Below, piece after piece: positions 17,979-61,544 of a stretch of 64,000 nucleotides of DNA. Positions within the stretch are counted from its first letter, which is position 1. Every line of letters starts with the position of its first letter. The notes under the pieces were generated by a model. That model saw only the letters and a program-made list of their open reading frames with translations, was not told the origin of the DNA and did no database searches. The position numbers were made by a program, and so were the translations under genes. This DNA comes from an uncultured Candidatus Poseidoniales archaeon (GTDB lineage: Archaea > Thermoplasmatota > Poseidoniia > Poseidoniales > Thalassarchaeaceae): the NCBI GenBank assembly GCA_964013425.1, contig CAXGWC010000003.1:50-64049 (forward strand). The letters run 5' to 3'.

Positions 17979-18001
17979 TAGAATATGCCAGAGTGAATAT
18001 T

Positions 18002-21676: not shown

Positions 21677-22621
21677 TTACTCTTGGGGGATCTCTTTACC
21701 TCTACGGATTAGTATGTCATTTTCAGCGAGTAATTCCCTAATTTCTTCTCTTTGCCAGCCCTTGAAAGATTTCCGATCAAGATGCACGAATATGTCTGCC
21801 CCAGGAAATGCTTGCTTAGTGGATTCGATAGCTGAAAGAATGGAGTCCTGCCACAAAATATTTGAATTCCTGCCAGCAATATCTTCAGTCATACCGAAAT
21901 CTAGCGAATAGCCTGCCAAAACATGGCCTAACCAGATGTTTCCCTTCTCCACCACTGCTTTGTGCCTAGGTGCATAATGCCCCCCTCCAAGCCCGACCAT
22001 GACATTCCCTTTTCCTTTCCACTCACCCAGTGGAGTACTACCATTCAGGCCCAGCACTTTGCAAAGAACACTGGCCCACAGGTTGAGCGCATCTTCTCTA
22101 CTCCAGTCAGACTGTGTAGATCCTATCTCGATGTAGAGAGTAGGAGATTCTAGAACTGGTCCGTGATGTGTTGCCTCCAATGTGAGGTCAAAATATTCAT
22201 CCAATCTTTTCTCTCGTGCCTCCTTCAACATTTCCCTGTACAGTGATGCAAACCTCGGAGATGGAGGGACCAATTGTCCGTTGATACCGCCTGATTTCCC
22301 AGGCAATCCAGGCGGATAAATACCAGGTAATCCGATAGCATGCAGGGTTATTGCAGGAGTGTCTGTTGAAGATACATGCCTAGAAAGGACTAGGACTTCG
22401 TTTATTTCACAAGAGACCTCTTTTTCATGAGTCAAATCTATGGAGTCTGCATGGACGTGGATATTTTCAATAGATAGGATGTGGACATCAGAAATCAGGT
22501 GTTTCACTACGCGACCATGGGAGTAAAACTCCTCTTCACCCCACTCAGAGGCCCTGAGTAACGAGTCTCGTAGGTTAACCGATGCATCATCGGACTCGGA
22601 ACATAGAATCAGTGTCGCCAT
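21677..22621 (-). CDS. dtdA: D-aminoacyl-tRNA deacylase, archaeal type
   Basis: Matches the archaeal DtdA motif pattern: LSRHVSS...PAITLHAIG, LEATHHGP, YIEIGSTQSDW, GLGGGHYAPRH, GHVLAGY. Confidence 0.85.
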   Translation of the reverse strand: MATLILCSESDDASVNLRDSLLRASEWGEEEFYSHGRVVKHLISDVHILSIENIHVHADSIDLTHEKEVSCEINEVLVLSRHVSSTDTPAITLHAIGLPGIYPPGLPGKSGGINGQLVPPSPRFASLYREMLKEAREKRLDEYFDLTLEATHHGPVLESPTLYIEIGSTQSDWSREDALNLWASVLCKVLGLNGSTPLGEWKGKGNVMVGLGGGHYAPRHKAVVEKGNIWLGHVLAGYSLDFGMTEDIAGRNSNILWQDSILSAIESTKQAFPGADIFVHLDRKSFKGWQREEIRELLAENDILIRRGKEIPQE

Positions 22622-22639: not shown

Positions 22640-23620
22640 ATGTATTCAATATTACAGCCACACCTTCAAGCAGTAGAGTCTTGCCGGGGATTCAGTATGG
22701 TCGATGACATAGGGTTCAATCCTATCAGGATTGATAGAGGGGGAGAGCACTCTATGATAGTCGGCTCGGACGGGCAAATGCTGGAAATCGATAGTCAGAA
22801 TGAGCAGGTGAATGAGGGAGCGATGTATCCATTTCCAGGAGTTTCATCGTGTGGGGTCGTTAGCTCCGATCATTGGATTGGCTCGTGGGTTGACAGAAGT
22901 ATGAGGAAGGCCTACATGGGCTCATTTCCATTGGGTGAAAAATGGGAATCTGCTAACTCAGACTCTGATGGCTCGGAAAATGGAGATGTTGATCATTCAG
23001 TAAGTAAATCTGCCTCTTGGACCAGAGAACTGCAGTCCGAGCCTCTAGCTATGTGTATGGTTGATGGAAATATCGTTTTTGCTTGTCTTGGTTCTGGGAT
23101 ATACATGATAGACGGGAACGCGAGTGAGATTTGGAGGTCACCATATCCCCGGTGGAGAGAGCTTGAAGACTTAGTTGGAATTGATTCGATTGTTTCCCTC
23201 CTACTAAAGGAGGATGAAATATATGCATTCTCATCATCTGGAGGTTACTCGGTTATCTCGATGGCTACCGGACATGAGATAAATAATGGTATTCTATCAA
23301 ACCTCCCAGATAGGGTACATGACGTTAGATATGATCAGGATTCCGGATGGATAATAATGCTACATGGCAAGAATGTAGCCATAATGAATGACCTGAATTC
23401 GAATCCAGCCATTTTCAGAGTTCCCGGACCTGTCATGGATGTGTTCCCTTGCGAGGGAGGGTGGAAATGGACAGGATGGAGGCATGATGGATATTTCTCT
23501 AATGGGAGACTGAGTACCTTCGGAAGGAATGAGGTAGGAATATCTCTATTCAACAATATAGTACTGACCAACAGTGGTACTTGGAAAATTTTTGAGGGCG
23601 ATGATCAGAAGTTCTTGTGA
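22640..23620 (+). CDS. Hypothetical protein, possibly beta-propeller-like
   Basis: 326-aa ORF with repeated G-x-hydrophobic beta-strand patterns and no catalytic motif. The true start is probably ATG 22697 (MVDDIGF), because only 18 nt separate 22640 from the divergent dtdA start. Confidence 0.5.
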
Positions 23621-25109: not shown

Positions 25110-28100
25110 GTGTTACAAATACCATCTGCTAATCTGATGACATCTCTTGCAAGGGCGGACGGCAGGTGCAATCGCCGAAGAGCACTTATTATTTCGGCAT
25201 TAATGTCACTTGTGGTTTTCTACCCACTAGCTTTGGAGAAGGTCGTTGAGACTGGAATACCAGAAGATAGTTCGAATTTCGCCACCAGCATGTCGGATCC
25301 TTGGGAGGACGGAGACCAGCCATGGCCCCAACCAGGGAGGACCCCTGGTAGAATGTCTGCTAGTCCTGTCCATGACCCAATGGGTAGCGTAAACTCGCTT
25401 TCTTCCATTACCGACCCCGTAATTAACTGGGAGTATGGCAACTATGACATTGGAACCGATTCTCTTGGAACTCCAATTGGCGATTTTAGCGATTCACTTC
25501 AAGTTGATTCAGAATCTCATGAAAGATGCGGGGGGAGTTCACTATACACAGTTGTCGTTCAGACCGATACTTCCTCGGGAGATAGCTATCTGAGAATTAT
25601 CGAGGGAGAAGACTCCGACTTGGCATGGGAAGTTAATCTTGGTCAAACAGAGACGGTCAAAGCGTCTCCAATGATTGTCGATATCGATGGTTCTGCAGGT
25701 CCGGAAATTCTGGTTGTGTATGATTTAGCGGTGGGAAGTGATGTCACACTCCGAGTGGATGCATGGTCGCCCAGACTAGTTTGTGATGTTACCGGATGGT
25801 CACCTAGTGGCTCGCATGACAGTCAATTACTCTGGCATTGGGAGGAGCCTAATTTGATGATAAGTAGCGAGGATGGCCCATACACAGGAAGTATCTGGGG
25901 CGGACATAAGCCAACCTCACAACCGCTGCTCGCTGATTTAGACTTAGATGGGGATGCAGAGCTAGTGATATCTGCCATAAGAGAGAGTGATAATTCCCCA
26001 AAGGTCGTTGCAATCAATCTACCTTCTTCTGGCTCACCTACTAAGATTTGGGATAAGAGCTTGAGATATGGAAGTCATGGATCTGACCCTGTTTTTGTCC
26101 AGACTGATGATGATACAGCTTACGTGATGCTGACCACAACTGAATCGACAAATGGTGCGATGTGGCTATGGAAGCTTGACTCATCGAGTGGCGATCCAAG
26201 TTGGGATGGGAAGTCACTCGGCAACCTAGATGGGGACTCGAATGTACCTCATATCAGGTTACCTGGGCCGATCGTGGCTAATCTGGATCAGGATAGTAGT
26301 CCTGAGATTATTGTCACCATTCCAACCGATAGTGACTCATCGGGAAATCTTGACGGGGCCGAATTTAGAGGCTTGGAAGTCGCCAATGGATCTGAAATAT
26401 GGAGTTACACGTCCCCCAACGGATATGCTGATTCTCCACCTCTACCAATTGATACTGATGGTGACGGGGACCATGATAGAATGTGCTGGGTTACGTGGTG
26501 GCAAACCACTACAGCGAGGCATGGCATAACCGGATGCGTGGATGATACGGATACATCAAGTCCGAATGAAGCGTGGTATCGAGATTTGGAGCAAAGTAGT
26601 GGTACTCCGAATGATGAGATTGCTGTTTCACAGCCAATATGGATGGATATCGAGGGGACTGCAGAGCCTGAATTACTAGTTGCTTACGGCAGATCACTGT
26701 GGGGTTTTGATGGTTCAGAAGGTACTGGTTCGGCTATTGGAACAGAATGGTCAAATGATTTGGAGTTGAATCAGAGGACCTGGTCCTCGCCATCATTAGC
26801 AGACATTGATGGAGACAACACGCTAGATGTGATTATTGGTGCGACCGTAGTTTCACTGGAGCGAACTGATATCAGGCCTTTGCTTGATGGAAGAGGGATT
26901 GAATTTGATCCAACCTCTCCTAATCCAGGACAAAGTGTGCAGATTTCAGCATTCATTGAGAATTCTGGAACAGGTAATCCTGATTCCGATGTTGATGCAG
27001 TTTTGTATGCTGATGGAATAGAGATAGGGAGGGAGAGATTTTCATCCATGCAACCTGTTTCTCCTTCCGGAACAGGGTCTTTCGAATCTTTCTCTGTCGA
27101 GTGGTCAGGACCACTAGGAGACCATGAGTTTACATTGGAGATTGATCCATTTTCCAACCTAACTCAGACTAGAACAGATAATGATGTGTACTCCAAGACC
27201 TTGTCAATAATCCCCACATATAATGTCACATTTGAAATTTCATCAGAGCCATTGAGAGTCAATCCTGGGGATTCAGCTGAGACCTCTCCGATAGTAAGGT
27301 CCACTGGGAGATTATCGGGTACTTGGTCATTGGAAATAGATGGTTCGCAACTTCCTCAGGGTTGGACATGGGAGGATGTGACGCCTGGAGGGAGTAGTAG
27401 CGTTCAGATCGCTACTGGGGAGTCTTGGTCTCCCCTAATCGAGATAGTCGCTCCCTCTACGGCCCTAGGATCGGATTCAGGTTTCCTTGGCCTGACTATG
27501 TCTCTGGATAGTGACTCCAACATTAGTGTTTCATCCATACTTCCCATTGAGGCAAATAGGACAAGGGGATTATCCATCAGAGGCCCCGAGGGCGCATCCT
27601 ACAGCTCTGGTTATGGATTAATTGGAGATTCTGCTAGAGCATGGATTGTTGTGGAAAATATCGGAAATGCTGTGGAAAATCAAATCTCATTGGATTGGGG
27701 GAATACACTTTGGGGTAGTGATTTACGATTGATTGACAGTGATGGGAATGAGAGGTTTGCATTGGTTCTTGACCCAGGGGAGAGGCTAGTTTTGGAAGCT
27801 AACCTTGATGTTCCATTTGTTGATGAAAATCAACAGATAGTACTAATTGGTGATCAGGTTGAGACGGCTTTGACGCTATGTGTGGACGGGGATGATGGAT
27901 GTCAAACTGTGGATTTAGCTTTCATTGCTTCCGGAGTAGTAAGTAGGAGTCATATCAGAAGTGTCCCTTCAAATGGCCTGGAGTGGATAATAGAAGCTGA
28001 CGCTCCTGTAGGTGAAGATATCCTATCATGGTCATTATCATCGGCTGGAATGGCAAAAACCGGTTGGTCTTGGACTGCATCGGGTGATTTACGAATAAAC

Positions 28101-30806
28101 GGGGACAATCTTTCAATGAATGTTTCCAACGGAGGTGGGTCGGGTTATCTGTCTCTGAATCTTCCAAGTAATGCGCCCCCTGCATTTCACTATTTCGAAG
28201 ATTCTAGTGAAGAGTCAATATCTCATTCTCTCAGGTTATCAATAGAGATTCTTCAAATTTTTAGATCTTCGATGGTAGTCTCATCGCCCAGTGAGCAGCC
28301 TGTCCTTGTAGAGGTGGAAGATGAGTCCTTGGTTGTATTAAGGTTAGAAAATTCAGGAAATGGAGATGATTCATTCAATCTGGGTTATTCGCTAATACTA
28401 AATGATAATATCACGGAGGATCCTGGAGTTGATGTCTCCTTTTCTAGAGATTTGGTTTCTCTTTCGGCAGGTAGCCTCACCACCGTTCCAGTAACCGTAC
28501 TTCTCCCTGAAAATACCCCTGCCAGAGTCCCTATGAAGATTTCATTCTCTATGCAATCAGTGGGAGATTCTACTATTCTATCTACTGTCGAGATAGTATT
28601 TGAGGCCAGGCAGGACCATCAGTGGAATGTCTATCCATTCCTTTCTAGCGAGTCGGGAAATATAGATGCTGATGGGAAAACATTTCAAGCGGATCCTGGA
28701 GAGTCTGTCTCATTGGATGTTCAAGTGACAAACGTCGGAAATCTAGTGGATGATCTAACTCTTCAAACATCCGTTATTACCTCCCTTCAGAGTGGAGATT
28801 CATCAACGGATTGGATTTCCAGTGGGAGTGCTATTTCTAATTTGGGAGTAAACGAAACAGAGGTGATTTCCGTCGATACTTTCATTCCTCTTGATGCATG
28901 GAGCGGATCATCAGCGGAGGTAACTGTTACCGCCATAGCACAAGGTCAAGAGATTACATCATTCTCGTTCTCTGTAGTGTCGGGACATGTTCCTTCCTGG
29001 AATGCGTTAGTTGATCAGGCGAACCTGGAAGTCGCAACCCACGGATCTGAAATCACACTATCTGTATTACAGACGGGGAATTCTCCTAGTCGTCCCTATA
29101 TCTCGATGTTTATCTCGGGTGAGCAAGGATGGGAAATTAGTAATGTATCAGAAATGCCAATCATAAACCCGGGGGAGAGTGCCCCCCTGTCTCTCAATAT
29201 TACTCCTCCGGGGGATGCTATACACGGAAGGGCAGTTGAGTTGACCATAAGAATCAAGGAAGGAGATTCCAGTGGACTATCAGAGATAGTATTCCCATTG
29301 AGAGTTGCAGTGACGTATGATTTCTCTTTGTCTGGACAGGGAAATTGGGTAGTTAGTCAAAATGGCGGGTATCCTCTAGCATTTATTGAAAATCGAGGTA
29401 ATGCTCCAACAACAATTTCACTCGATGTTCTTAGCCTACCGCCAGGTTGGCAAGTTTCAGGTCCCACCCAGGTGGTGATTGGCGTAGGGGAAATTACTGG
29501 AGTCCCATTGGAAGTCGTCCCCTCTTCAGATTGGGATGGTTCAACAAAAACTATCAGAATAGATGCTCAGGATGAAGCTGGTAATCTAGACAGTATTCTT
29601 TTAGACACTCAATATGAGGATTATTCATGGTCATCGAGTCCGGTAATCATAACTACTTCAGGCGATAGCTATATCCTGGAAATCCATCGTACAAATTCAG
29701 ATAGTTTAGTGGTTGATTCTGCCAACGGTCCACTCACGTGGAGGGATGCAGGTGGATGGCTATGGGACTCTTATTCCAGAGGAAACGGAAGTCTGAGTGT
29801 TAATTCATCTACAATACTTGAGTATAGATCATGGGTATCAGAACCATCCCTAAGACAGGGAAGTTGCTCAATAGGTGGGGATGTAGATGCCATTGAAGCT
29901 AGTTGTACAATAATGAATGGTAGTGAAAAATTTGGTTACACAGTTATCCTATCGGATGACAGGGGCAATATGCTAGATTCAATTTCAGGATTACTAGAGC
30001 AAGGGGAGTCATCGGGGATGATTAACCTAAGTGCTAATGGATGGGAACCTACGCCAGGTAGGAGTGAGCTAACTATTAGGGCTATTGATTCGAGAGGAAT
30101 CGAGTTTTCATCTGATAGCAATACATTCGAGGTTAGAAGGACCGATTGGAATATCGGATTGGTAGGCTTGGAGATAATCGGAACAGGTCAAGAACAAGAA
30201 GTATTCATTCTCACAAAGAGAGATAATCATCAGATTTTAGATGGTTCAATATGTTTAATCACCATTCTTGCGGGTAACGCATTCTCTGCAGAATACCTAG
30301 TCGATATGTCTGAATCTAGTGCCTTAGCACCCAGACCAGCCATAGATAGGCCTAATGTCGCTGACGGGGTAGAGTTAGTGGCTACAATAAGTTGCGAGTT
30401 CCCTTGGGATATTGATTCCGACCCTTCAGACAATGAAGCTAGAATTATACTATCTGGCTCGGGAGAATCTGAAGGAGGTTTCAGTGACTCGAGCACTGCA
30501 ATAGCATCGGCCAGCTTGGTAATTGGAATTTCTATTGCTTTCGCATGGATGGCTAGAAACTTCCGAGAGAGCAAGGAAATGATGGAGAGAACTAGGCTAG
30601 CAGTAGAGAAGAAGGCATTAGAGAAGAAGGCAAATATGGCTAAGGAAATGGATTCTCCAAGTCAAAAAGTGGTACAAGAAGAGGGTGTAGTCGATAATCT
30701 TGGAGATATCACAGAAGTTCCCACTGAAGAGATACCCGATCAAGTAGATGATAACTCGATGGATAGCTTCGAGGAGCGTCTTAATCGACTAAGATCAGAT
30801 AAGTAG
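25110..30806 (+). CDS. Giant integrin-like surface protein (1,898 aa): signal/anchor, FG-GAP-type beta-propeller repeats, CARDB domain, array of NEW3/CARDB-like Ig modules, TM helix, charged cytoplasmic tail
   Basis: Six FG-GAP-like repeats: SPMIVDIDGSAGPEILVV, PLLADLDLDGDAELVISA, IVANLDQDSSPEIIVT, LPIDTDGDGDHD, IWMDIEGTAEPELLVA, SLADIDGDNTLDVIIGA. The CARDB-like segment runs NPGQSVQISAFIENSGTGN...GDHEFTLEIDPF...TDNDV. Repeated 'NPG(D/E)S...GW' modules follow. The C-terminal TM is AIASASLVIGISIAFAWMA, then a K/E-rich tail. The start is GTG 25110 or ATG 25137 (MTSLARADGRCNRRRALIISALMSLVVF). Confidence 0.85.
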   Translation: MLQIPSANLMTSLARADGRCNRRRALIISALMSLVVFYPLALEKVVETGIPEDSSNFATSMSDPWEDGDQPWPQPGRTPGRMSASPVHDPMGSVNSLSSITDPVINWEYGNYDIGTDSLGTPIGDFSDSLQVDSESHERCGGSSLYTVVVQTDTSSGDSYLRIIEGEDSDLAWEVNLGQTETVKASPMIVDIDGSAGPEILVVYDLAVGSDVTLRVDAWSPRLVCDVTGWSPSGSHDSQLLWHWEEPNLMISSEDGPYTGSIWGGHKPTSQPLLADLDLDGDAELVISAIRESDNSPKVVAINLPSSGSPTKIWDKSLRYGSHGSDPVFVQTDDDTAYVMLTTTESTNGAMWLWKLDSSSGDPSWDGKSLGNLDGDSNVPHIRLPGPIVANLDQDSSPEIIVTIPTDSDSSGNLDGAEFRGLEVANGSEIWSYTSPNGYADSPPLPIDTDGDGDHDRMCWVTWWQTTTARHGITGCVDDTDTSSPNEAWYRDLEQSSGTPNDEIAVSQPIWMDIEGTAEPELLVAYGRSLWGFDGSEGTGSAIGTEWSNDLELNQRTWSSPSLADIDGDNTLDVIIGATVVSLERTDIRPLLDGRGIEFDPTSPNPGQSVQISAFIENSGTGNPDSDVDAVLYADGIEIGRERFSSMQPVSPSGTGSFESFSVEWSGPLGDHEFTLEIDPFSNLTQTRTDNDVYSKTLSIIPTYNVTFEISSEPLRVNPGDSAETSPIVRSTGRLSGTWSLEIDGSQLPQGWTWEDVTPGGSSSVQIATGESWSPLIEIVAPSTALGSDSGFLGLTMSLDSDSNISVSSILPIEANRTRGLSIRGPEGASYSSGYGLIGDSARAWIVVENIGNAVENQISLDWGNTLWGSDLRLIDSDGNERFALVLDPGERLVLEANLDVPFVDENQQIVLIGDQVETALTLCVDGDDGCQTVDLAFIASGVVSRSHIRSVPSNGLEWIIEADAPVGEDILSWSLSSAGMAKTGWSWTASGDLRINGDNLSMNVSNGGGSGYLSLNLPSNAPPAFHYFEDSSEESISHSLRLSIEILQIFRSSMVVSSPSEQPVLVEVEDESLVVLRLENSGNGDDSFNLGYSLILNDNITEDPGVDVSFSRDLVSLSAGSLTTVPVTVLLPENTPARVPMKISFSMQSVGDSTILSTVEIVFEARQDHQWNVYPFLSSESGNIDADGKTFQADPGESVSLDVQVTNVGNLVDDLTLQTSVITSLQSGDSSTDWISSGSAISNLGVNETEVISVDTFIPLDAWSGSSAEVTVTAIAQGQEITSFSFSVVSGHVPSWNALVDQANLEVATHGSEITLSVLQTGNSPSRPYISMFISGEQGWEISNVSEMPIINPGESAPLSLNITPPGDAIHGRAVELTIRIKEGDSSGLSEIVFPLRVAVTYDFSLSGQGNWVVSQNGGYPLAFIENRGNAPTTISLDVLSLPPGWQVSGPTQVVIGVGEITGVPLEVVPSSDWDGSTKTIRIDAQDEAGNLDSILLDTQYEDYSWSSSPVIITTSGDSYILEIHRTNSDSLVVDSANGPLTWRDAGGWLWDSYSRGNGSLSVNSSTILEYRSWVSEPSLRQGSCSIGGDVDAIEASCTIMNGSEKFGYTVILSDDRGNMLDSISGLLEQGESSGMINLSANGWEPTPGRSELTIRAIDSRGIEFSSDSNTFEVRRTDWNIGLVGLEIIGTGQEQEVFILTKRDNHQILDGSICLITILAGNAFSAEYLVDMSESSALAPRPAIDRPNVADGVELVATISCEFPWDIDSDPSDNEARIILSGSGESEGGFSDSSTAIASASLVIGISIAFAWMARNFRESKEMMERTRLAVEKKALEKKANMAKEMDSPSQKVVQEEGVVDNLGDITEVPTEEIPDQVDDNSMDSFEERLNRLRSDK

Positions 30807-30816
30807 TGGTGAATGT

Positions 30817-31443
30817 ATGAGTATGAATTCAAATCTACCATACTTCCACACATTTGATCCCATAGCTAGTGATCCTCTGGACATTATCCCAGCAGTGCTT
30901 TCTTCCATGGGCGGAGATCACGGAGAATTGAAGGAAAAGAGTCCATTTTCAATTGATATTAAGAACCTAAAGGAAGGTATTGAGCCTACTTTTGACCCTG
31001 CTACAATGTTGTATATTTCCATTGGAGAATTAGATTCAGAGGGAAGAAGGACTGAGCCGATAGACTCCAGTTCTGGTAAGGAAAGGCTGGGGCGATTTCC
31101 ATACGGGGATGGAAATATCATAACATACCTCCTAGAAAATACCAAGCAGAAAGGAGATATGACGGTACTTCATGATCTCCTAGCGAAACTTTCTGACGGA
31201 TTATCTGAAGATAATCTTGGAGAAATAGGATTTAGACATGGTTTTGGAGGATTAACACTACTTGGGTGGCTGAATAACGAAGAAGTATCGGAGTTGAGTA
31301 GCGCTATTCGGTCTGGACGTTGGAAGGTTCTGTCTGAAGAACCACTAGATGGAGGGGTTGATTATGCTTTCAGACTCTTGCTTGCAATGCTAAGGACGGC
31401 ACAAAGAAGAAGATGTGGAGTTCTTATGAGAAGACACTCTTAG
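30817..31443 (+). CDS. Hypothetical cytoplasmic protein (208 aa), translationally coupled to the 1,898-aa gene
   Basis: ATG lies 10 nt after the giant's TAG, preceded by GTGGTGA (SD-like, 30806-30812). No TM segment or known motif. Confidence 0.55.
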   Translation: MSMNSNLPYFHTFDPIASDPLDIIPAVLSSMGGDHGELKEKSPFSIDIKNLKEGIEPTFDPATMLYISIGELDSEGRRTEPIDSSSGKERLGRFPYGDGNIITYLLENTKQKGDMTVLHDLLAKLSDGLSEDNLGEIGFRHGFGGLTLLGWLNNEEVSELSSAIRSGRWKVLSEEPLDGGVDYAFRLLLAMLRTAQRRRCGVLMRRHS

Positions 31444-32400
31444 CTAGAATTTTTCACCGGTCAGGCGTTCAAACATTCCTGCATATAGGTCTGCGGTTTG
31501 TTTGATGATTTTACTTGGAAGAGCTGGAATGGGTGGTTCTTCCGAACCTATCTCTCTAGCTTGATAGAGCTCTTCATAGTGGCCGGTTGAGAGATAATGC
31601 TCCCTGACAAACTCCTTGGATAGAGATACGATATTTCCATTCTCATAATCATCAGCTGCCCACCACCTATCTTCGTCCAGAGTCCCGAATGAGTCAACAA
31701 GAACGGGTACGCGACCAGGTCCAAGTGCGAATTCTTTTTTTCCATCGACATGTATCAAGCCCCTTTTGGATGCTTCACTATGAATAATTTCATCTATTTT
31801 AACAACGATATCAAGGATGGTGTCGAACTCCTCATCACTTAAATTAGAAATCTCCAAGGCTTCTTTACGATCCAGTAACCTGTCGAATTTCTCAAATTTA
31901 GTAGAGACTTCTAGATACGGGGATGGTAATTTAATACCTTCATGTAATACAGTTCCTGGATCGAATCCAAATTCCTCGGGGCCGACGTCTCCTCTGTCAT
32001 ACCTTCTCCATCCTCCTCCCGCTAAGTAGTGTCTGCATATGACCTCAAGAGGAACGAAAACATTCTCCATATCGCGGGGAATCGCGCCGGGCTCTCTGAT
32101 TACTTCGAATCGACGCGCTAGAACTCTATCTGGTGCATTCATTTCGATAATGTGGGTATCACATATTCCGGCTTCTTCAACAAGTTTGAACCAATGGCAC
32201 GAAGTCCTGTTTAGGCTTTCTCCCTTTCTGGGGACCAAGCTTGGTATGATCTGATCGAAGACACTAATCTGATCGGTATACCTAAATTCTATGATATCTG
32301 GATCATCCGTACTCCATACTTCCTTTACTTTGCCCTTGTACAGCATGCCTACCATGGCATAAGGAGGGGAGAGATGATGATGAACATTACTGAAGGACAT
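31444..32400 (-). CDS. purC: Phosphoribosylaminoimidazole-succinocarboxamide (SAICAR) synthase
   Basis: Motifs: LYKGKVKEVWSTDD...FRYTDQISVFD, LEVICRHYLAGG, LVDSFGTLDEDRWW. The conserved N-terminus suggests the real start is ATG 32355 or 32346. Confidence 0.8.
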   Translation of the reverse strand: MSFSNVHHHLSPPYAMVGMLYKGKVKEVWSTDDPDIIEFRYTDQISVFDQIIPSLVPRKGESLNRTSCHWFKLVEEAGICDTHIIEMNAPDRVLARRFEVIREPGAIPRDMENVFVPLEVICRHYLAGGGWRRYDRGDVGPEEFGFDPGTVLHEGIKLPSPYLEVSTKFEKFDRLLDRKEALEISNLSDEEFDTILDIVVKIDEIIHSEASKRGLIHVDGKKEFALGPGRVPVLVDSFGTLDEDRWWAADDYENGNIVSLSKEFVREHYLSTGHYEELYQAREIGSEEPPIPALPSKIIKQTADLYAGMFERLTGEKF

Positions 32401-32461
32401 TCAGATTTTCGAGTACCGCCGGGACTATATCCGAGGAACCTCGCCACAAGAGAGCGAGCGG

Positions 32462-34600
32462 ATGTTTGAAACAATGAATTCTGAGAGGCGGAGAAGGTAT
32501 CCTTTGGCATTTCCAAGCTTTTTTCCGATTTTATTGATGTCATTACTAGTAGTTTCCATCCCAGCTAATGCACAGGAGTATAGAAGCGGCTGGGACATTA
32601 TTGAAAGTGGCACCTTAGAAGACCTCTATTCAGTAGAGTCTCAAGGAAATGAGATTTGGGCATTTGGAGAAAATGGGATTATGATAATTAGTTTAGATGG
32701 GGGTCTAACTTGGGAGGTTAGCGAATCCCTAACCTCATCTGATTTGACAATATCTAGCTCTGGCTATGGATCATTTCTAGCAGCTAGTAGTGACGGTACA
32801 ATTTTACTTAAGTCAAACAATGATTCAGAATGGTCGGACATCACATTTGACTTCGGAGATGAGTTGATTCATGGAGCATGTCTTACTGATGTGTCTGAAT
32901 TGGTAATAGTCGGTGGAAATGGGACCATCTGGACCTATAAGATGCAGGAGTGGACCAATCGTTCAGTTTCAGGATGGGATTTGTTAGACGTATCTTTCTT
33001 GGATTCTGAAAGAGGAATCGCTGTCGGGGAACATGGGACAATTCTATTCTCAGGTGATAGTGGAGAATCCTGGGATTACAGAGATGCACCTACAGAGGCT
33101 TCATCTTCAAAGATTACTGATGTAGAGTTCTTCAGTGAAATAAGAGCATATGCAATTACAGATGATGGAGGAGTCATCAAGTCTTCTAGAGAAATTAACA
33201 CTGCAGTGGGTTTTCTCTGGAATATGCAGTATTTTGAATCTGAGGGTAACTCTGCCAACCTCGGAGAAAATCTAACATCGATTGAGATAGCAACGACAAA
33301 TAAATTTCTTCTTTCTGGCAAACAGGGATACCTCTCTATGAGTAAAGACGGAGGGAATATAGTCACCAAACAGATCACACCCCTCGATAATTCGACATCA
33401 TTCAATGACATTACAATGATGGATAGCTTCAACGGTGTAGCAGTTGGCAGTAATGGCTCCTTACTTCTAACGGAGAGGTCTGGAGAGGACGAGCAGATTG
33501 GTTTTGAGGTTATGGACTTCTCGGAATTCGGAAACTTTGTAGACTATTCCAAGGGGATGTTGATAGATGGTTTGTACGCTACAATTAACATAGTAATGTT
33601 CGGAATTTTCCTTGGATTCTTCTTAGGGGTATCTCTCTCAATGATGAAGACATCACCCACTACTTTGAAAGAAATTTCTCAGAGGAGAAGCCTAACAGTT
33701 GTTAGAATCGCTGGAGTCATCTTTACGGTTATTGGAGTCTCCCTCCTGAGACACTTAGTTCCTACAATTAGAAACTTAGGATTGGATGGTTGGGAATATA
33801 TTTACGCTCCGATTGGAATCATTAATCCTGATGGAATAACGGGCGATCTGCAATTTGAAAACTTCCTATTTCTCATACTTGGAGTTAGTCTCTTACTATT
33901 AGGAATATTATTCGTTTCGGCTAATGGCGAGTATAAGAAATCTCATTTCAATATCGTAGGCAGGGATATTGTCTGGAATCCTTGGGGGGTCAGGCCTCTA
34001 AATTTCCTTGCAACGATCTATACAGACATCTTTAGGAATACCCCACTAATTGTTCAGTTTTTATTCATACATTTCGGAGTCCAGATAGGCGCCTTTATCG
34101 GAGACCCTGGTGCAGAGATGTTGGAGGATTCAAGTAATTTTATCCTTTCATTCTTGAGAGATGATATACTTTCAAACAGAGCCTGTGTTAGTGCTATTTT
34201 TGCGTTGGGACTGAACTCTGGAGCGTATCAATGTGAGACCATTCGAGGAGCTATTTCGGCTATACCATCGGGACAGATGGAAGCGGGAAGAAGCATAGGT
34301 CTGAATTATATGCAAACGATGAGACTTGTAATAATGCCTCAAGCAATTAGGATATGCATTCCTCCGATGGGCAACGAGATGGTAAATCTAGTACTAAACT
34401 CGTCACTCGCAATGGTTATTGGCTATTCAGAGCTTACCCGGAAGGCCAAGCTGATCAACGCAGTTACTTTCCAAGTGTTCTGGTCATATGGGATGGTCTT
34501 GATTTCATACTTTATTGTTACATGGACACTAGCATTATTCCTAAGATACCTCGAGAATAAGACGAGGATTCCTGGACTTGGAATATCCGGAGGGAGCTGA
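32462..34600 (+). CDS. Fusion protein: N-terminal extracytoplasmic BNR/Ycf48-like beta-propeller plus polar amino-acid ABC transporter permease (HisM/GlnP family)
   Basis: 712 aa. Signal/anchor: RRRRYPLAFPSFFPILLMSLLVVSIPANAQE. Residues about 40-340 carry repeated propeller blades: SLDGGLTWE, SSDGTILL, GGNGTIWT, SGDSGESW, TDDGGVIK, SKDGGN, GSNGSLLL. Residues about 365-712 carry PAAT permease motifs: FRNTPLIVQFLFIHFG and SGAYQCETIRGAISAIPSGQMEAGRSIGLNYMQTMRLVIMPQAIRICIPPMGNEMVNLVLNSSLAMVIGYSELT. Confidence 0.8.
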   Translation: MFETMNSERRRRYPLAFPSFFPILLMSLLVVSIPANAQEYRSGWDIIESGTLEDLYSVESQGNEIWAFGENGIMIISLDGGLTWEVSESLTSSDLTISSSGYGSFLAASSDGTILLKSNNDSEWSDITFDFGDELIHGACLTDVSELVIVGGNGTIWTYKMQEWTNRSVSGWDLLDVSFLDSERGIAVGEHGTILFSGDSGESWDYRDAPTEASSSKITDVEFFSEIRAYAITDDGGVIKSSREINTAVGFLWNMQYFESEGNSANLGENLTSIEIATTNKFLLSGKQGYLSMSKDGGNIVTKQITPLDNSTSFNDITMMDSFNGVAVGSNGSLLLTERSGEDEQIGFEVMDFSEFGNFVDYSKGMLIDGLYATINIVMFGIFLGFFLGVSLSMMKTSPTTLKEISQRRSLTVVRIAGVIFTVIGVSLLRHLVPTIRNLGLDGWEYIYAPIGIINPDGITGDLQFENFLFLILGVSLLLLGILFVSANGEYKKSHFNIVGRDIVWNPWGVRPLNFLATIYTDIFRNTPLIVQFLFIHFGVQIGAFIGDPGAEMLEDSSNFILSFLRDDILSNRACVSAIFALGLNSGAYQCETIRGAISAIPSGQMEAGRSIGLNYMQTMRLVIMPQAIRICIPPMGNEMVNLVLNSSLAMVIGYSELTRKAKLINAVTFQVFWSYGMVLISYFIVTWTLALFLRYLENKTRIPGLGISGGS

Positions 34601-36723
<2,123 letters not shown>

Positions 36724-40849: not shown

Positions 40850-41323
40850 ATGGAATGGGTCAGGGTTTCGATAGGGGAAGAGAAAAGTACCGATCCTCCA
40901 ATGCCCGCGCTTACAGGATCACACAATGGCTTGGACTCTGATGCCTCGACATCACACCGAAAATTCTTTTCAGATATTCCTCATATGACAGAAGTGATTG
41001 ATAATCATGAAAGATCCACAAAAAAAGTATTGATTCCAGGAAATGACTCATTGGGCGGCTATGACTCGATCAAATTATTCGAGGAGCGAATAACCGCAAT
41101 TGGTGCTGATTCTCTGGGGGATGGATTAGAGATTCCTCTATCTAAAACTGTCAGAGAAGAGGTGCTTCTTCAAAGGGCGACTACTGAATCAGGGCAGTTA
41201 GTCAGGTTAGTTGCACCAGAAAAATTTGGAGGCAGGATAGAGTCATTCATGCTGCCAAATGGAACTACCTTGAATGAGGCCTACTGGGATGGAGATAGAT
41301 TGAAGATAACCTTCAATTACTAA
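40850..41323 (+). CDS. Hypothetical protein (157 aa)
   Basis: ATG-initiated ORF with ordinary composition and no motif. Its stop overlaps the stop of the convergent giant gene (CTAA). Confidence 0.45.
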   Translation: MEWVRVSIGEEKSTDPPMPALTGSHNGLDSDASTSHRKFFSDIPHMTEVIDNHERSTKKVLIPGNDSLGGYDSIKLFEERITAIGADSLGDGLEIPLSKTVREEVLLQRATTESGQLVRLVAPEKFGGRIESFMLPNGTTLNEAYWDGDRLKITFNY

Positions 41324-44300
41324 TCTTCGATTATTTTTCCTTTGGACCTTGATGGAACGTCCTCTAATTGATCGATTTCTTGTAATACCGAGTTGAGAGC
41401 CATTTGCGCGCTTTCCCTGTGTTGGTTACCCAGAACGTGACTTGAGTACCTCGCTTCTTCGAATATCCTATCCAGAGATAGTAAAGCCTGTTCGCTTATT
41501 GGAAGTGCACTTCTGATTGCCATTTCGAATTCTCTTACGGTTTCGAAATCTCTTCTGAGGAATCCCCTGCTCATTAGTATCTTGCAAAGTCCTTCATAGC
41601 AATTGAATATCGCTTCCCTAACTTCGTCTCCAGCGGCTAGAAGTTCTGCAGTGTAGCTAAAGACACCAGCTAACTCATCAATAGCGGCCTTCTTTCTGTT
41701 TCTTATGGTTACTACCAGAGCTGAAACTCCGATCATAAATGCCACCAGAAGAACTGAAATTATTGCGGGCCTCAATAGAGAGTCGGAAGCTTCTGCCTGA
41801 TAGTTTATGCTGACTTCACTAAACTGAGCAAGTTGAGTGGCGTTGACCGGGTCAATAATATCCGAGTCAGAGCTAAACTCAATTTTCAACTCGCCCCAAA
41901 AATCCCTATCCCAGAATGAGTGGTCATCATGGAATGATTCGAACTGATAGTCAAAAATTCCATTCACATCAGTCATCCCAACGACAGTAAAAAGAGTATC
42001 CGTATCATTGGTTAATCTGGCAGTAATTGAGACTCCTTCGACAGGAGGTGCTCGATTATCATCAGAAGCAGTTACGTTGATTTTTCCAGAAATCTTAGAT
42101 TGTCCTCTCTCGATAAATATTCCATCGGGAATGAATACAAAGTCGACACTAACTAGAATCTGTAAGTCGAATTCAACTGATGCCCCATTAAGGAATCTCT
42201 CGGCATCTGGTTCTACATCTATAGTGAAGATAGAATTACCAGGAGGCATGTATGTCTTTGCATTGGAAGTGATGAGGAACTGTCCTGTGGCTTGGTCCCA
42301 TGAAATAATTGCATTAGGCTCAAGAGAACCCTCCCAAAGGAGCGACATCTCCATCTCTTCCATTGTATTTCCGTCTCCTCCAATTTCTAGTACTCTACCT
42401 CTGACCCTGATTGGCCTAGTTTCGTCACTTCTGACTACCTCATCAGAGATGAGGAGTATTTCCACATTGATATCCGCTCTTGAGAAAACAGTAGTATTTG
42501 TCGAGTCGGATAGATATAGTTCCTCTCCGTAGAAATGGACCGAAACTAGGTGATCTCCGCGAGATATCGAATATCCCAGTTCGTGCGTGAATGAGAAAGT
42601 CCCATCAACCCCAGTAGTCACCACTAGTATCTCAATGCCATCCAAAAGGAATGAGACTTCCCTATTCTCTAATCCCGGGGTACCGGGGGTGTCAGAATCA
42701 TATAGCCTTCCAGAGAAGTTCCACGAACCGCCCCTTGTTGCTACGCTGTTCTCGACATTCAAGGTAATAGTAGTGTGATATGCAATTGTGAGATTTGTTT
42801 CGACTGAGGTCTGCCTGTAGTAGCCTTGGTCGGGAGATATTACAGTTACTGGGTGGACCCCCACATCAAGGAATTCTGAAACAACCCAAGAAAGATGCCA
42901 ACTACCATCTTCTTCGGTCACTGTGGTCCCTATCAATATGCCATCAACAAATATCTGTAGTGAGTGGTTGGAGAGCCAACCATCGGGAAGATTATCCCTC
43001 ACATCACCCCTTAGATTCAGTACATCTCCAACCGCGACTGGGGTTGGATTTTCCACAGTCAGGGTTGTTGGAGAGAACACAGTGAAGATTGTTGTTGAGT
43101 TTGAGCCAAGAATGAATTCCTCACCCTGGAATAATAACATGACCTCCCTTGGTCCCAGAGGCATATCGGAGGGAACGGGGAAAAATAGACTGAATGAGCC
43201 GTTTCCATCTACACTAAGTGATGTCAGCATTTGACCATTCATGTATGCGTCGAGGGTCCTATTTGGAAGAGGCCTTCCGGCTCCATCGGTCAAAATTCCT
43301 TCAATCAGTAACAGTTCATTTCTATCTATTTCTCCCTGAGGAGTAGTTAGGACCACCTGTGAAGTTTGCGTTACATTGAATGGAGAGGTAGTAATTGAAG
43401 ATAGGTAATACTCTGGATTCAGCGAGTCTCCTTGCCCCATCGGATCTACCCATGTAAAACCACCTAGGAACTCAATACTGAATGTATGCTGACCATAGTC
43501 CATGTCAAGTGGAAGATCATATGTGATTTGCCATGCCCCAGATGTAGAGTTTGAAACGTCAATATACTGTGGACCTACATCAATTCCATCGATGTGAAGA
43601 TGGACCACTCCACCCTTCGGAGAGCCGTCCTCTACTAAAGGCAATCCGCGCTCATCTAAGAGTGTGCCACTGAATACCACTCGCTCCCCGGCTACGGCAG
43701 AGCCAGAGATGTTTGACACCTCTATCACAGTTGGAGCTAGAATGATTATCCTAGTCCATGTTTGGTCTCCTGATAAGCCAGTAGTTCCATTGATCCCGTC
43801 AAAAACTGCCGTCACAGTCATCGGCCCTGGATCCCTATTTGGATCGGTTGACAGATTCGTGTTGATCAGACCATTTGAATCTGTAAATCCTGACCAAGTC
43901 TCGAGCCCATCCACTAGGATCTTGACCTCCACATTAGCGACATTCTCTCCAGCATTGTCCATTATAGAAATATTGAGATTTGTGGGGTCGCCTCTGATGG
44001 TTCTTGCATCGGGGTCCAAATCGGTTGGATCAATGATAGAAATCATTGAGAAGCCCCTACTATCGAAGGTTCCATTACTTGAGCTTGAGCTGTAGTAGTT
44101 CACAGTAGGAGTGTAAGTTGCTGAGATATTGTGGGCCCCTCTAGGGAATGTCATGTCCAAGAAAATCCTGGCTGACCAACTACCATCAGGATCCACAGCT
44201 CCCCCAGAAACAGTGAATCCAGTAGAAACATCGTCGATTAAGAAGGTCAGACTTGGTGAGAGTGGATTTCCTGATCTATCAACAATACCGCTTCCGTTAC

Positions 44301-55857: not shown

Positions 55858-55879
55858 GTGTTGAAAGGGTGTATGAACC

Positions 55880-58131: not shown

Positions 58132-58132
58132 C

Positions 58133-59419: not shown

Positions 59420-59425
59420 GGTGAC

Positions 59426-60865: not shown

Positions 60866-60874
60866 GGTGGATTC

Positions 60875-61543: not shown

Positions 61544-61544
61544 A

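What the first reader, a model, noticed from the sequence alone, without database searches (positions are those of the whole stretch)
32462..34600. ABC amino-acid permease fused to a BNR/Ycf48-like beta-propeller, with no substrate-binding protein gene
The operon has only two genes: this 712-aa protein and a GlnQ-like ATPase. Polar amino-acid (PAAT) importers need a periplasmic-binding-protein-fold receptor, which is either a separate gene or a fusion to the permease. Here the roughly 300-aa extracytoplasmic N-terminal domain instead carries about seven propeller-blade motifs (DGGLTWE, SGDSGESW, SKDGGN, GSNGSLLL...). No PBP-fold gene flanks the operon; the neighbours are purC upstream (divergent) and gdhA downstream (convergent). 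The propeller may be a new kind of transporter receptor or docking module, or it may tether the importer to surface or particle glycans.
Basis: partly seen in the sequence, partly recalled or inferred. Interest (0 to 1): 0.7.

Follow-up and report, generated by a model that had tools for sequence, protein, structure and literature searches.

The report
Propeller-fused amino-acid ABC permease, binding-protein gene lost
A marine archaeon (Marine Group IIb) encodes an amino-acid ABC importer whose membrane subunit carries a seven-bladed Ycf48-like propeller on the outside. Sister lineages and Asgard relatives keep a classical binding-protein gene next to the same fusion, so the propeller is an old add-on and this lineage has simply lost the linked binding-protein gene.

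Summary
Window 32462-34600(+) encodes a 712-aa protein made of a signal peptide, a 7-bladed Ycf48-like beta-propeller, and a polar-amino-acid (PAAT) ABC permease that carries an extra 2-TM hairpin. A GlnQ-like ATPase gene abuts its stop codon. purC and gdhA flank the pair on the other strand, and no binding-protein gene was detected in the 64-kb window.

The fusion is not an artefact. It occurs in more than 120 protein clusters and 158 species genomes. All 80 listed loci are Poseidoniales, and every genome checked is MGIIb.

- Shorter propeller-permease fusions exist in Heimdall-group Asgard archaea. All 4 loci examined there carry a membrane-anchored SBP_bac_3 gene, adjacent in 3 and 5.6 kb away in 1.
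- 16 of 72 evaluable MGIIb species loci, and 33 of 33 metagenome loci with flanks, have a homologous, circularly permuted SBP gene between purC and the fusion.
- That group includes the sister clade of the window's lineage.

The propeller therefore coexisted with a classical receptor. The linked SBP gene was lost about four times, once in this lineage.

The propeller is most likely an accessory docking or scaffold module. A receptor role in SBP-less lineages is not excluded (about 0.2). An unlinked aapJ-type SBP, reported in the literature for MGIIb, could act in trans.

This is a new variant of a known kind, of moderate interest.

The parts
32401..32461 (+). 61-bp spacer between divergent purC and the fusion gene. 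It holds a TATA-like CTATAT about 33 nt before the ATG and leaves no room for an SBP gene or a remnant of one.
   Evidence: Sequence read. In 16 sister or related MGIIb loci this position holds a 323-328-aa SBP gene.
32462..32575 (+). Residues 1-38: Sec-type signal peptide-like segment (RRRR, a hydrophobic core at 13-36, then ANA|QE).
   Evidence: Hydropathy peak 13-38. Cleavage is inferred from the sequence and was not tested.
32591..33472 (+). Residues 44-337: seven-bladed Ycf48-like (BNR/Asp-box) beta-propeller, extracytoplasmic. The N-terminal strand 44-48 closes blade 7.
   Evidence: Pfam PF14870 at 58 bits. phmmer against PDB finds Ycf48 2xbg at 5e-11. AF2 strand pattern. Foldseek top 12 hits are all Ycf48, TM-score on target 0.69-0.75. 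W44, W66, D79, G81, W84, W204, R207, P210, R228, S241 and W253 are invariant or near-invariant in both MGIIb and Asgard fusions.
33473..33553 (+). Residues 338-364: acidic, aromatic linker (GEDEQIGFEVMDFSEFGNFVDYSK). It is highly conserved within MGIIb, which suggests a structured interfacial element.
   Evidence: Conservation 0.62, higher than the propeller at 0.48. Invariant G341, G347, F348, F356, F359, V360 and K364. Low pLDDT.
33554..33652 (+). Residues 365-397: permease TM1 (N-terminus outside, C-terminus inside).
   Evidence: Aligns to ArtQ residues 14-46 of 4yms. Hydropathy.
33653..33991 (+). Residues 398-510: MGIIb-specific insertion in the TM1-TM2 cytoplasmic loop. It consists of two extra TM helices (about 409-436 and 465-485) bracketing a conserved outside loop, LGLDGWEYIYAPIG.
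   Evidence: A gap of about 110 aa relative to ArtQ between its residues 46 and 48. The TIGR01726 hit is split into two stretches. Hydropathy. The insertion is absent from Asgard fusions of 560-650 aa and much larger in P0063 and P0100.
33992..34600 (+). Residues 511-712 plus the stop codon: conserved PAAT permease core (TM2 to TM5). It contains the EAA coupling loop E607-A-G-R-S-I-G613...I624-M-P626 and a TM2-TM3 outside loop about 25 aa longer than usual (546-574).
   Evidence: PF00528. ArtQ of Art(QN)2, 4yms, at 5.5e-30. Core conservation 0.85 across MGIIb.
34601..35341 (+). GlnQ/HisP-type ABC ATPase, 246 aa, with its start codon directly abutting the permease stop codon.
   Evidence: NCBIfam GlnQ at 2.3e-85 and PF00005 at 1e-38. 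Start/stop junction. Always follows the fusion gene in related loci.
31444..32400 (-). purC (SAICAR synthetase), the conserved divergent neighbour (context only).
   Evidence: PF01259 at 1.4e-39. Conserved in essentially every MGIIb locus that has upstream flank.
35338..36702 (-). gdhA (glutamate dehydrogenase), the convergent neighbour. It is conserved in many MGIIb lineages but not all (context, and a weak hint at an amino-acid substrate).
   Evidence: PF00208 and PF02812. Presence and absence across loci.

Best explanation
What it is. This is a type I, polar-amino-acid (PAAT/HisQM-GlnP-ArtQ family) ABC importer of a Marine Group IIb archaeon (Thalassarchaeaceae). It is most likely built as a homodimer of the 712-aa permease plus two GlnQ-like ATPases.

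The permease layout. Each permease chain starts with a signal peptide and a Ycf48-like seven-bladed propeller that lies outside the cell, joined by a conserved linker to TM1.

Evolutionary history. The module [membrane-anchored SBP_bac_3 | propeller-permease | ATPase] is ancestral. It is seen in Heimdall-group Asgard archaea and in several MGIIb lineages. The propeller is therefore an accessory extracytoplasmic domain that worked alongside a classical binding protein, not a substitute for one. The window's lineage, like at least three other MGIIb lineages, has lost the linked SBP gene while keeping the permease and ATPase under strong constraint.

Inferred mechanism. The propeller acts as a docking or scaffold platform on the outer face of the transporter. 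Two analogies support this. Ycf48 docks on the lumenal surface of the membrane protein D1, and the MalF P2 domain holds MalE on the maltose transporter. The propeller would hold or position the membrane-anchored binding protein, or stabilise the complex. In SBP-less lineages the substrate would be delivered either by an unlinked PAAT-type SBP (MGIIb genomes are reported to carry a highly transcribed aapJ-type gene) or less efficiently without one.

Shown versus inferred. Shown: the domain identities, the fold, the distribution, the coexistence with the SBP and its repeated loss. Inferred: the homodimer stoichiometry, signal-peptide cleavage, the docking role and the substrate (a polar amino acid).
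For: Domains and fold.

The fusion is real and widespread in MGIIb. Genomes UBA62, 121, 36, 58, 23, 86 and 173 are all MGIIb in the Tully 2019 supplement.

Asgard fusions: HMMER representative search, Pfam, source names Heimdallarchaeota, Kariarchaeaceae and Hodarchaeales.

SBP next to Asgard fusions: L090 divergent and adjacent, L087 directly after the ATPase, L089 divergent and adjacent (48% identical to the L090 SBP; Pfam SBP_bac_3 3e-26), L088 5.6 kb upstream.

SBP in MGIIb:
- 16 species loci carry a 323-328-aa SBP gene between purC and the fusion. It has a signal peptide and a C-terminal TM anchor.
- An HMM built from the Asgard SBPs scores these genes at 2e-13 to 8e-21.
- Pfam SBP_bac_3 gives 34-37 bits against a cut-off of 26.4.
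- In 33 of 33 metagenome loci with usable flanks the SBP sits in the same place and never elsewhere.

Tree: SBP-bearing loci fall in two separate clades, one of which is sister to the window's clade. This implies about 4 losses.

No remodelling after loss: no residue is fixed differently between SBP+ and SBP- fusions.

The SBP is evolutionarily labile: it is 34% identical between loci whose permease core is 97% identical and whose propeller is 76% identical.

Precedents: Ycf48 docks on the membrane protein D1 through a basic patch (PMC10403576). Ycf48-like COG4447 propellers are cofit with and adjacent to RND transporters (bioRxiv 10.1101/072470).

Against: - There is no direct evidence for what the propeller binds.
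- The SBP diverged drastically in one subgroup without matching change in the propeller. This argues against a tight propeller-SBP interface.
- Four independent losses of the SBP gene, with the transporter retained, would be odd if the SBP were essential, unless a trans SBP exists.
- The propeller sits at the N-terminus of TM1, exactly where fused binding domains sit in GlnP-type permeases. That placement fits a receptor role equally well.
- The NJ tree has no support values.
- The metagenome search for relocated SBPs was limited to two peptide patterns.
Confidence: 0.5

Rival explanations
1. The propeller is itself a substrate receptor. It would capture a free amino acid or the C-terminus of a peptide and deliver it to the translocation pathway. 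It would do this either as a second receptor beside the SBP (compare the two binding domains of GlnPQ) or as the only receptor in SBP-less lineages such as this one.
For: - The propeller occupies the position of the fused binding domains of GlnP-type permeases: signal peptide, then extracytoplasmic domain, then TM1.
- The linked SBP gene was lost about 4 times while the fusion and ATPase stayed highly conserved.
- No relocated copy was found.
- Ycf48 is a peptide- and carboxylate-binding propeller (structures 'YCF48 bound to D1 peptide'; Arg patch).
- Two arginines (R207, R228) plus S241 and W253 are invariant in both MGIIb and Asgard propellers.
- MGIIb-specific conserved outside elements (the hairpin loop LGLDGWE..P.G and the linker) could form a docking surface.
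Against: - The propeller coexists with a classical SBP in all 4 Asgard loci and in 16 MGIIb species loci.
- No residue change is fixed in SBP-less relative to SBP-bearing lineages.
- The propeller evolves 2-5 times faster than the TMD core, and if anything slightly faster in SBP-less pairs.
- Only 1 of the 3 Ycf48 Arg-patch positions that the pairwise alignment covers is Arg here.
- By strand position, R207 and R228 probably lie on opposite faces (this is inference).
- MGIIb genomes are reported to have an unlinked aapJ-type SBP.
Confidence: 0.2
2. The propeller is an envelope, particle or partner-protein anchor. It would tie the importer to the S-layer, to glycans or particles, or to secreted peptidases, so that amino acids released by extracellular proteolysis are taken up on the spot. 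It would have no direct role in the transport cycle.
For: - BNR/Asp-box and Sortilin-Vps10-type propellers are common in surface and glycan-active proteins. There are weak Pfam Sortilin-Vps10 hits in the Asgard forms and a weak F510_1955 glycosylhydrolase hit here.
- Many stand-alone relatives are T9SS-sorted surface proteins.
- The neighbourhood is rich in giant surface proteins, a subtilase and M60-like peptidases.
- MGII are described as particle- and protein-degrading (PMC6336850).
Against: - No catalytic or carbohydrate-binding signature was detected.
- The surface-protein neighbours are not consistently linked to the operon.
- The conserved linker and the very short tether to TM1 keep the propeller at the membrane surface rather than reaching outward.
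Confidence: 0.15
3. The fusion is a frameshift or assembly artefact of two separate genes.
For: One long-read contig (L126) has the gene split into 411 + 293 aa.
Against: The uninterrupted fusion occurs in more than 120 protein clusters from independent assemblies and in 158 species genomes. It also occurs in Asgard archaea. There is no start codon or spacer between the domains, the linker is conserved, and the topology is consistent (N-terminus outside, joined to TM1).
Confidence: 0.01

Closest known systems
Art(QN)2 / HisQMP2 / GlnPQ-type polar amino-acid (PAAT, TC 3.A.1.3) type I ABC importers
   Same: The permease core is homologous to ArtQ (4yms, 5.5e-30). It has the HEQRo 3-TM signature, the EAA loop and an adjacent GlnQ/HisP-type ATPase. 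A single permease gene implies a homodimer, as in Art(QN)2 and GlnPQ. As in GlnP, an extracytoplasmic domain preceded by a signal peptide is fused before TM1.
   Different: The fused domain is a 7-bladed propeller, not a type II periplasmic-binding-protein fold. A 110-aa, 2-TM hairpin is inserted between TM1 and TM2. No SBP gene lies in this locus or window, although relatives have one.
Ycf48/HCF136, the photosystem II assembly factor (PDB 2xbg, 5oj3, 8am5)
   Same: It is the best sequence and structure match for the N-terminal domain: a seven-bladed propeller with Asp-box-like turns, located outside the cytoplasm next to a membrane. Ycf48 works by docking onto the exposed surface of a polytopic membrane protein, which is the model I borrow.
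   Different: The organism is a non-photosynthetic archaeon. The domain is covalently fused to a transporter rather than being a stand-alone lipoprotein. The NCBIfam Ycf48 equivalog scores 52 bits against a cut-off of 326. Identity is 14-18%. The Arg patch is not conserved position for position.
COG4447 Ycf48-like BNR propellers encoded next to RND (COG1033) transporters with DUF1302/DUF1329 in Proteobacteria
   Same: A Ycf48-like propeller is genetically coupled to a membrane transporter and shares its phenotypes. This is a precedent for the propeller as a transporter accessory.
   Different: That system involves a separate protein, an RND exporter and a bacterial periplasm. Here the propeller is fused, the transporter is an ABC importer, and the host is archaeal.
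MalF P2 loop of the maltose importer MalFGK2-MalE
   Same: It is an extra extracytoplasmic domain belonging to a type I importer permease, and it contacts and positions the binding protein. This is the functional analogy for an accessory docking domain (from established knowledge; the review PMC6906923 is listed).
   Different: P2 is an Ig-like insertion between TM helices, not an N-terminal propeller, and there is no homology. Contact between the propeller and the SBP is not shown here.

Membership tests
PAAT-family type I ABC importer permease (BPD_transp_1 / HEQRo_perm_3TM) | BPD_transp_1 domain above the Pfam gathering score | tested here: met
   PF00528 at 56.3 bits against 26.4, residues 511-702.
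PAAT-family type I ABC importer permease (BPD_transp_1 / HEQRo_perm_3TM) | N-terminal His/Glu/Gln/Arg/opine 3-TM signature (TIGR01726) | tested here: met
   47.5 bits against a cut-off of 42.2, but split into 2 stretches by the 110-aa insertion.
PAAT-family type I ABC importer permease (BPD_transp_1 / HEQRo_perm_3TM) | EAA coupling loop and an adjacent HisP/GlnQ-type ATPase | tested here: met
   E607-A-G-R-S-I-G613 ... I624-M-P626, read from the sequence. ATPase matches GlnQ at 2.3e-85 and its start codon abuts the permease stop codon.
PAAT-family type I ABC importer permease (BPD_transp_1 / HEQRo_perm_3TM) | Cognate SBP_bac_3 (PF00497) receptor, either encoded with the system or fused to it | tested here: not met
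   None in the operon, the flanks or the 64-kb window. It is met in relatives: 4 of 4 Asgard loci and 16 of 72 MGIIb species loci.
PAAT-family type I ABC importer permease (BPD_transp_1 / HEQRo_perm_3TM) | ATP-driven uptake of a polar amino acid | not testable with these tools
   Needs proteoliposome or whole-cell transport assays.
Ycf48/HCF136 photosystem II assembly factor | Seven-bladed beta-propeller fold with a Pfam PSII_BNR match | tested here: met
   PF14870 at 58.3 bits against 27. Foldseek top 12 hits are Ycf48, TM-score on target 0.69-0.75. 7 blades by DSSP.
Ycf48/HCF136 photosystem II assembly factor | Equivalog-level sequence match (NCBIfam PRK13684) | tested here: not met
   52 bits against a cut-off of 326.
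Ycf48/HCF136 photosystem II assembly factor | Conserved Arg patch (Arg180, 196, 215, 219, 220, 237 in Synechocystis) that binds D1 | tested here: inconclusive
   In the phmmer alignment to 2xbg, the segment RTTSRR of Ycf48 aligns with RSVSGW here, so 1 of 3 Arg is kept. The family has its own invariant R207 and R228. No structure superposition with coordinates was possible.
Ycf48/HCF136 photosystem II assembly factor | Stand-alone lumenal lipoprotein of an oxygenic phototroph acting on D1 | tested here: not met
   The domain is fused to an ABC permease in MGIIb and Asgard archaea, which have no photosystem II (established knowledge).
GlnP-type permeases with fused substrate-binding domains | Signal peptide plus an extracytoplasmic domain fused N-terminally to the PAAT TMD | tested here: met
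   Architecture.
GlnP-type permeases with fused substrate-binding domains | The fused domain has the type II periplasmic-binding-protein fold (PF00497) | tested here: not met
   No PF00497 hit. The fold is a propeller.

The most novel reading that the evidence does not exclude
In MGIIb lineages that have lost the SBP gene, including this one, the Ycf48-like propeller has become the substrate-capturing receptor of a type I ABC importer. That would be the first non-PBP-fold receptor for this class of transporter, in one of the most abundant archaeal groups of the surface ocean.
Probability: 0.2. Interest if true: 0.85.

Novelty: new variant of a known kind. Interest (0 to 1): 0.5.

Why it matters
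Type I ABC importers are textbook examples of dependence on a periplasmic-binding-protein-fold receptor. This family puts a large, conserved beta-propeller on the permease. It is found in two ecologically important archaeal groups: MGIIb, among the most abundant planktonic archaea, and Heimdall-group Asgard archaea.

In the paper library searched here the architecture is visible only as automated annotation ('YCF48-related protein', 'amino acid ABC permease'). My searches found no paper describing it.

The family also offers a natural experiment. Closely related lineages exist with and without the linked binding protein, which makes two questions directly testable:
- What does an accessory extracytoplasmic domain contribute to an ABC importer?
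- Can such an importer dispense with its classical receptor?

There is a practical point for ocean metagenomics too. Scoring amino-acid uptake capacity by SBP marker genes alone would miss this transporter in most MGIIb lineages.

Tried and rejected
1. Frameshift or assembly artefact. Rejected on distribution. One split copy on a long-read contig (L126) looks like a sequencing error.

2. Hidden PBP fold in residues 40-340. Rejected by Foldseek and phmmer.

3. The Pfam-less neighbours of some MGIIb loci (391 and 302 aa in L003 and L005) as divergent SBPs. Rejected. They are low-complexity surface proteins and are not hit by the SBP HMM.

4. Window ORFs without Pfam hits (1357-2331, 16812-17978, 22640-23620, 30817-31443) as SBPs. 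Rejected by inspection and by the HMM.

5. Relocated SBP in SBP-less lineages. The metagenome scan with the MGIIb SBP alignment found the gene only beside the fusion. The first attempt, which included the Asgard sequences, failed because no stretch was conserved enough. The scan used only two peptide patterns, so divergent copies could be missed.

6. Lineage-specific remodelling of the fusion after SBP loss. No residue is fixed differently. The propeller/core divergence ratio is only modestly higher in SBP-less pairs, and those pairs are not independent.

7. Whole-genome SBP census. Not possible.

8. Tully 2019 supplements for KO tables (K09969, K02030). Nothing is held.

9. Literature on propeller-fused ABC permeases. 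None found.
Full report
**1. Observation**

The ORF at 32462-34600(+) is real: 712 aa with an ATG start. Its TGA stop directly abuts the ATG of a 246-aa ORF at 34601-35341.

Pfam finds PSII_BNR/Ycf48 (58 bits, cut-off 27) in the N-terminal third and BPD_transp_1 at residues 511-702. NCBIfam places the C-terminal part with cystine, GlnP, EhuC and HisM-type permeases, and it passes the HEQRo_perm_3TM model. The second gene is GlnQ-like (2e-85).

The neighbours are purC (divergent) and gdhA (convergent), followed by an HD-domain protein.

The N-terminus (RRRR, a hydrophobic stretch at 13-36, then ANA|QE) looks like a Sec signal peptide. Cleavage is inferred.

**2. Fold of the N-terminal domain**

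I built an AlphaFold2 model from a 42-sequence family alignment (A1). It gives seven four-stranded blades over residues 44-337, with the N-terminal strand closing blade 7. pLDDT is 85-90 for blades 1-5 and 65-80 for blades 6-7. The membrane part is modelled with low confidence.

Foldseek against the PDB returns Ycf48 structures as the top 12 hits (E about 1e-13, TM-score on target 0.69-0.75, rmsd 3.7-4.2 Å over about 306-336 columns). Generic WD40 propellers follow, and no periplasmic-binding-protein fold appears. phmmer against PDB sequences agrees (Ycf48 2xbg, 5e-11).

**3. The permease**

The closest solved relative is ArtQ of the homodimeric Art(QN)2 importer (4yms, 5.5e-30). The alignment shows two differences from ArtQ:
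- About 110 residues (398-510) are inserted between ArtQ positions 46 and 48, which is the TM1-TM2 cytoplasmic loop.
- The TM2-TM3 outside loop is about 25 residues longer.

Hydropathy shows that the insertion contains two additional TM helices bracketing a conserved outside loop, LGLDGWEYIYAPIG. The insertion keeps the topology intact.

A single permease gene plus a single ATPase gene implies a (TMD)2(NBD)2 homodimer with two propellers. This is inference by analogy with Art(QN)2 and GlnPQ.

**4. The fusion is not an artefact**

The same architecture occurs in more than 120 protein clusters at 42-97% identity, 704-939 aa long, and in 158 GTDB species genomes. All 80 loci returned are Poseidoniales.

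The closest genome, UBA62 (94% identity), and six other genomes spread across the family tree are all MGIIb in the genome table of Tully 2019. The window therefore comes from a Thalassarchaeaceae (MGIIb) archaeon.

The order purC | fusion-ATPase | (gdhA) is conserved almost everywhere. One long-read contig has the gene split 411 + 293 aa, which is probably a frameshift error.

**5. Relatives outside MGII**

An exhaustive HMMER search with the permease half found a second tier of fusions of 560-650 aa that lack the 2-TM insertion. Pfam confirms PSII_BNR plus BPD_transp_1 in them. Their source names are Heimdallarchaeota (OLS19808.1), Kariarchaeaceae and Hodarchaeales.

Two Hodarchaeota relatives carry a polytopic N-terminal extension instead of a propeller.

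The nearest stand-alone propellers are bacterial 'photosystem II stability/assembly factor-like' proteins at only 23-29% identity.

**6. The key result: a classical binding protein accompanies the fusion in relatives**

Asgard loci. All four loci examined have an SBP_bac_3 gene:
- divergently adjacent in L090;
- immediately after the ATPase in L087;
- divergently adjacent in L089, where the gene had no precomputed Pfam hit but is 48% identical to the L090 SBP and scores 3e-26 for SBP_bac_3;
- 5.6 kb upstream in L088.

These SBPs have a signal peptide and a C-terminal TM anchor.

MGIIb species loci. I built an HMM from the four Asgard SBPs and searched all six-frame ORFs of the window and 86 MGII loci. 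It hit one ORF in each of 16 MGIIb loci (E 2e-13 to 8e-21). A second-round HMM found no others, and none in the window.

In all 16 the gene encodes 323-328 aa with a signal peptide and a C-terminal anchor. It lies between purC and the fusion, transcribed divergently from the fusion. The two copies scanned (L046, L027) pass the Pfam SBP_bac_3 gathering score at 34-37 bits against 26.4.

Of the 80 species loci, 72 have enough upstream sequence to judge. 16 have the SBP, and in the other 56 purC directly abuts the fusion.

Metagenome loci. A metagenome scan with the MGIIb SBP alignment returned 35 loci. All 33 with usable flanks have fusion-ATPase-gdhA on one side and purC on the other. Within the reach of the two search patterns, this SBP is never found anywhere else.

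**7. Loss, not absence**

I built a neighbour-joining tree of 82 MGIIb fusions rooted with 7 Asgard fusions. SBP-bearing loci fall in two separate places:
- a 13-locus clade whose sister clade lacks the SBP;
- L018-L020 (including Ca. Thalassarchaeum betae), which is sister to the window's own clade (the window plus L007-L016, all 712 aa and all SBP-less).

Three facts point to the three-gene module as ancestral. The gene order matches that in Asgard loci. The SBPs are homologous. And they share an unusual N-terminal placement of the helix that is normally C-terminal (alignment A2).

The linked SBP gene would then have been lost about four times, once on the branch leading to this window.

Caveats: the tree has no support values, and recombinational spread of the SBP gene among MGIIb lineages cannot be excluded.

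**8. What changed after loss**

Nothing systematic. No alignment column is fixed differently in SBP+ and SBP- fusions.

The propeller evolves 2-5 times faster than the TMD core in both groups. It is slightly faster in SBP- pairs, though those pairs are not independent.

The SBP itself is labile. It is 34% identical between L026 and L035, where the propeller is 76% and the core 97% identical. The canonical carboxylate-binding Arg of the MTKTAER motif is not kept in the MGIIb SBPs.

Propeller residues conserved in both MGIIb and Asgard fusions are the Asp-box and structural Gly/Trp residues, plus R207, P210, R228, S241 and W253.

**9. Mechanism**

Shown:
- a PAAT-type ABC importer whose permease carries an extracytoplasmic Ycf48-like propeller;
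- the architecture coexists with a cognate membrane-anchored SBP in the ancestral and several extant forms;
- the linked SBP gene is gone here.

Inferred:
- The propeller is an accessory docking or scaffold module.
- Ycf48 docks through a basic patch on the exposed surface of the polytopic protein D1 and holds its C-terminal tail (PMC10403576).
- Ycf48-like COG4447 propellers are cofit with and adjacent to RND transporters (10.1101/072470).
- The MalF P2 domain positions MalE on a type I importer (established knowledge).

In SBP-less lineages the substrate may come from an unlinked SBP. Tully 2019 reports an 'L-amino acid' SBP in most MGIIb subclades. [quoted passage not shown] The O1 and O3 loci examined here have no SBP beside the fusion, so such a gene must lie elsewhere in those genomes.

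I could not check whether that SBP has its own permease.

The main rival is a propeller that is itself a receptor (about 0.2). It explains the repeated SBP loss and the GlnP-like placement of the domain. It is weakened by the coexistence with an SBP and by the lack of remodelling after loss.

The substrate is unknown. The family assignment, the conserved gdhA, purC and aminotransferase neighbours, and the amino-acid-catabolism content of the window fit a polar amino acid but prove nothing.

**10. Comparison and novelty**

It works like, and its TMD and NBD belong to, the PAAT family. The feature 'cognate SBP encoded with the system' is not met in this window but is met in relatives.

Its N-terminal domain has the Ycf48 fold and passes the Pfam family threshold. 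It is not a Ycf48 orthologue: the equivalog model scores 52 against 326 bits, the host has no photosystem, and the domain is fused.

It has the domain order of GlnP-type fused permeases but not their fold.

The library searches found no paper describing propeller-fused ABC importer permeases. Databases carry only automatic names.

**11. Verdict**

New variant of a known kind, interest 0.5. The 'no binding protein, so the propeller is the receptor' reading is only partly supported.

Noticed in passing
L027:8878-9846(-), L046:8946-9914(-) and 14 other MGIIb loci; Asgard L090:24-1061(-), L087:12633-13625(-), L088:3442-4404(+), L089:8760-9845(-): The MGIIb binding protein is a circular permutant of the Asgard one. 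Lobe 2, which lies C-terminal in the Asgard SBPs, sits at the N-terminus in MGIIb. Both groups also carry, near the N-terminus, the helix (GNxELLxA..AL..I..SG.....Y..WF.GE) that is C-terminal in ordinary SBP_bac_3 proteins. The canonical carboxylate-binding Arg (MTKTAER) is not conserved in the MGIIb form.
   Followed up: partly
SBP genes of L028, L035, L037, L038, L042, L060 compared with L020, L026, L027 and others: One MGIIb SBP subgroup has diverged to 30-36% identity from the other, while the adjacent permease core stayed 83-97% identical and the ATPase 75-86% identical. This points to strongly accelerated SBP evolution, from either relaxed constraint or a change of specificity.
   Followed up: partly
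window 33653-33991 (residues 398-510); P0063 (918 aa), P0100 (939 aa), P0059 (892 aa): The TM1-TM2 cytoplasmic loop of the permease is an insertion hot spot. All MGIIb forms have a 2-TM hairpin there. Some have several hundred extra residues with many more predicted TM helices. Asgard forms have none.
   Followed up: partly
P0194 (619 aa) and P0208 (520 aa), Hodarchaeota: These close permease relatives carry a polytopic, roughly 330-400-aa N-terminal membrane extension instead of a propeller.
   Followed up: no
L126:5001-7140 (1.495-Mb pilon-polished contig of ERZ28548060): The fusion gene is split into 411-aa (propeller) and 293-aa (permease) ORFs 22 bp apart. This is probably a long-read frameshift rather than a natural split.
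   Followed up: no
window 9552-16436(-), 25110-30806(+), 41320-50289(-), 50359-53322(-): Four very large predicted surface proteins of 2294, 1898, 2989 and 987 aa. Homologues of the 1898-aa protein show weak FG-GAP and CARDB hits, and the 2989-aa homologue has a transglutaminase core. The 1898-aa gene is syntenic with the transporter locus across MGIIb.
   Followed up: no
window 54799-62738(+), 20688-21674(-), 17972-19270(+), 2456-3658(-), 21677-22621(-): The window is rich in protein and amino-acid catabolism genes. There is a lipoyl synthase, then a 2-oxoacid dehydrogenase complex (E1 alpha, E1 beta, E2, E3), a lipoate ligase and a class-V aminotransferase in one cluster. There is also a proline dehydrogenase, a subtilase S8, a class I/II aminotransferase and a D-aminoacyl-tRNA deacylase.
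   Followed up: no
window 22640-23620(+), 1357-2331(-), 16812-17978(+), 30817-31443(+): Four ORFs of 208-388 aa have no Pfam hit. The 388-aa one is polytopic with a C-terminal Cys-rich, zinc-ribbon-like tail. The 208-aa one is conserved next to purC in other MGIIb loci.
   Followed up: no
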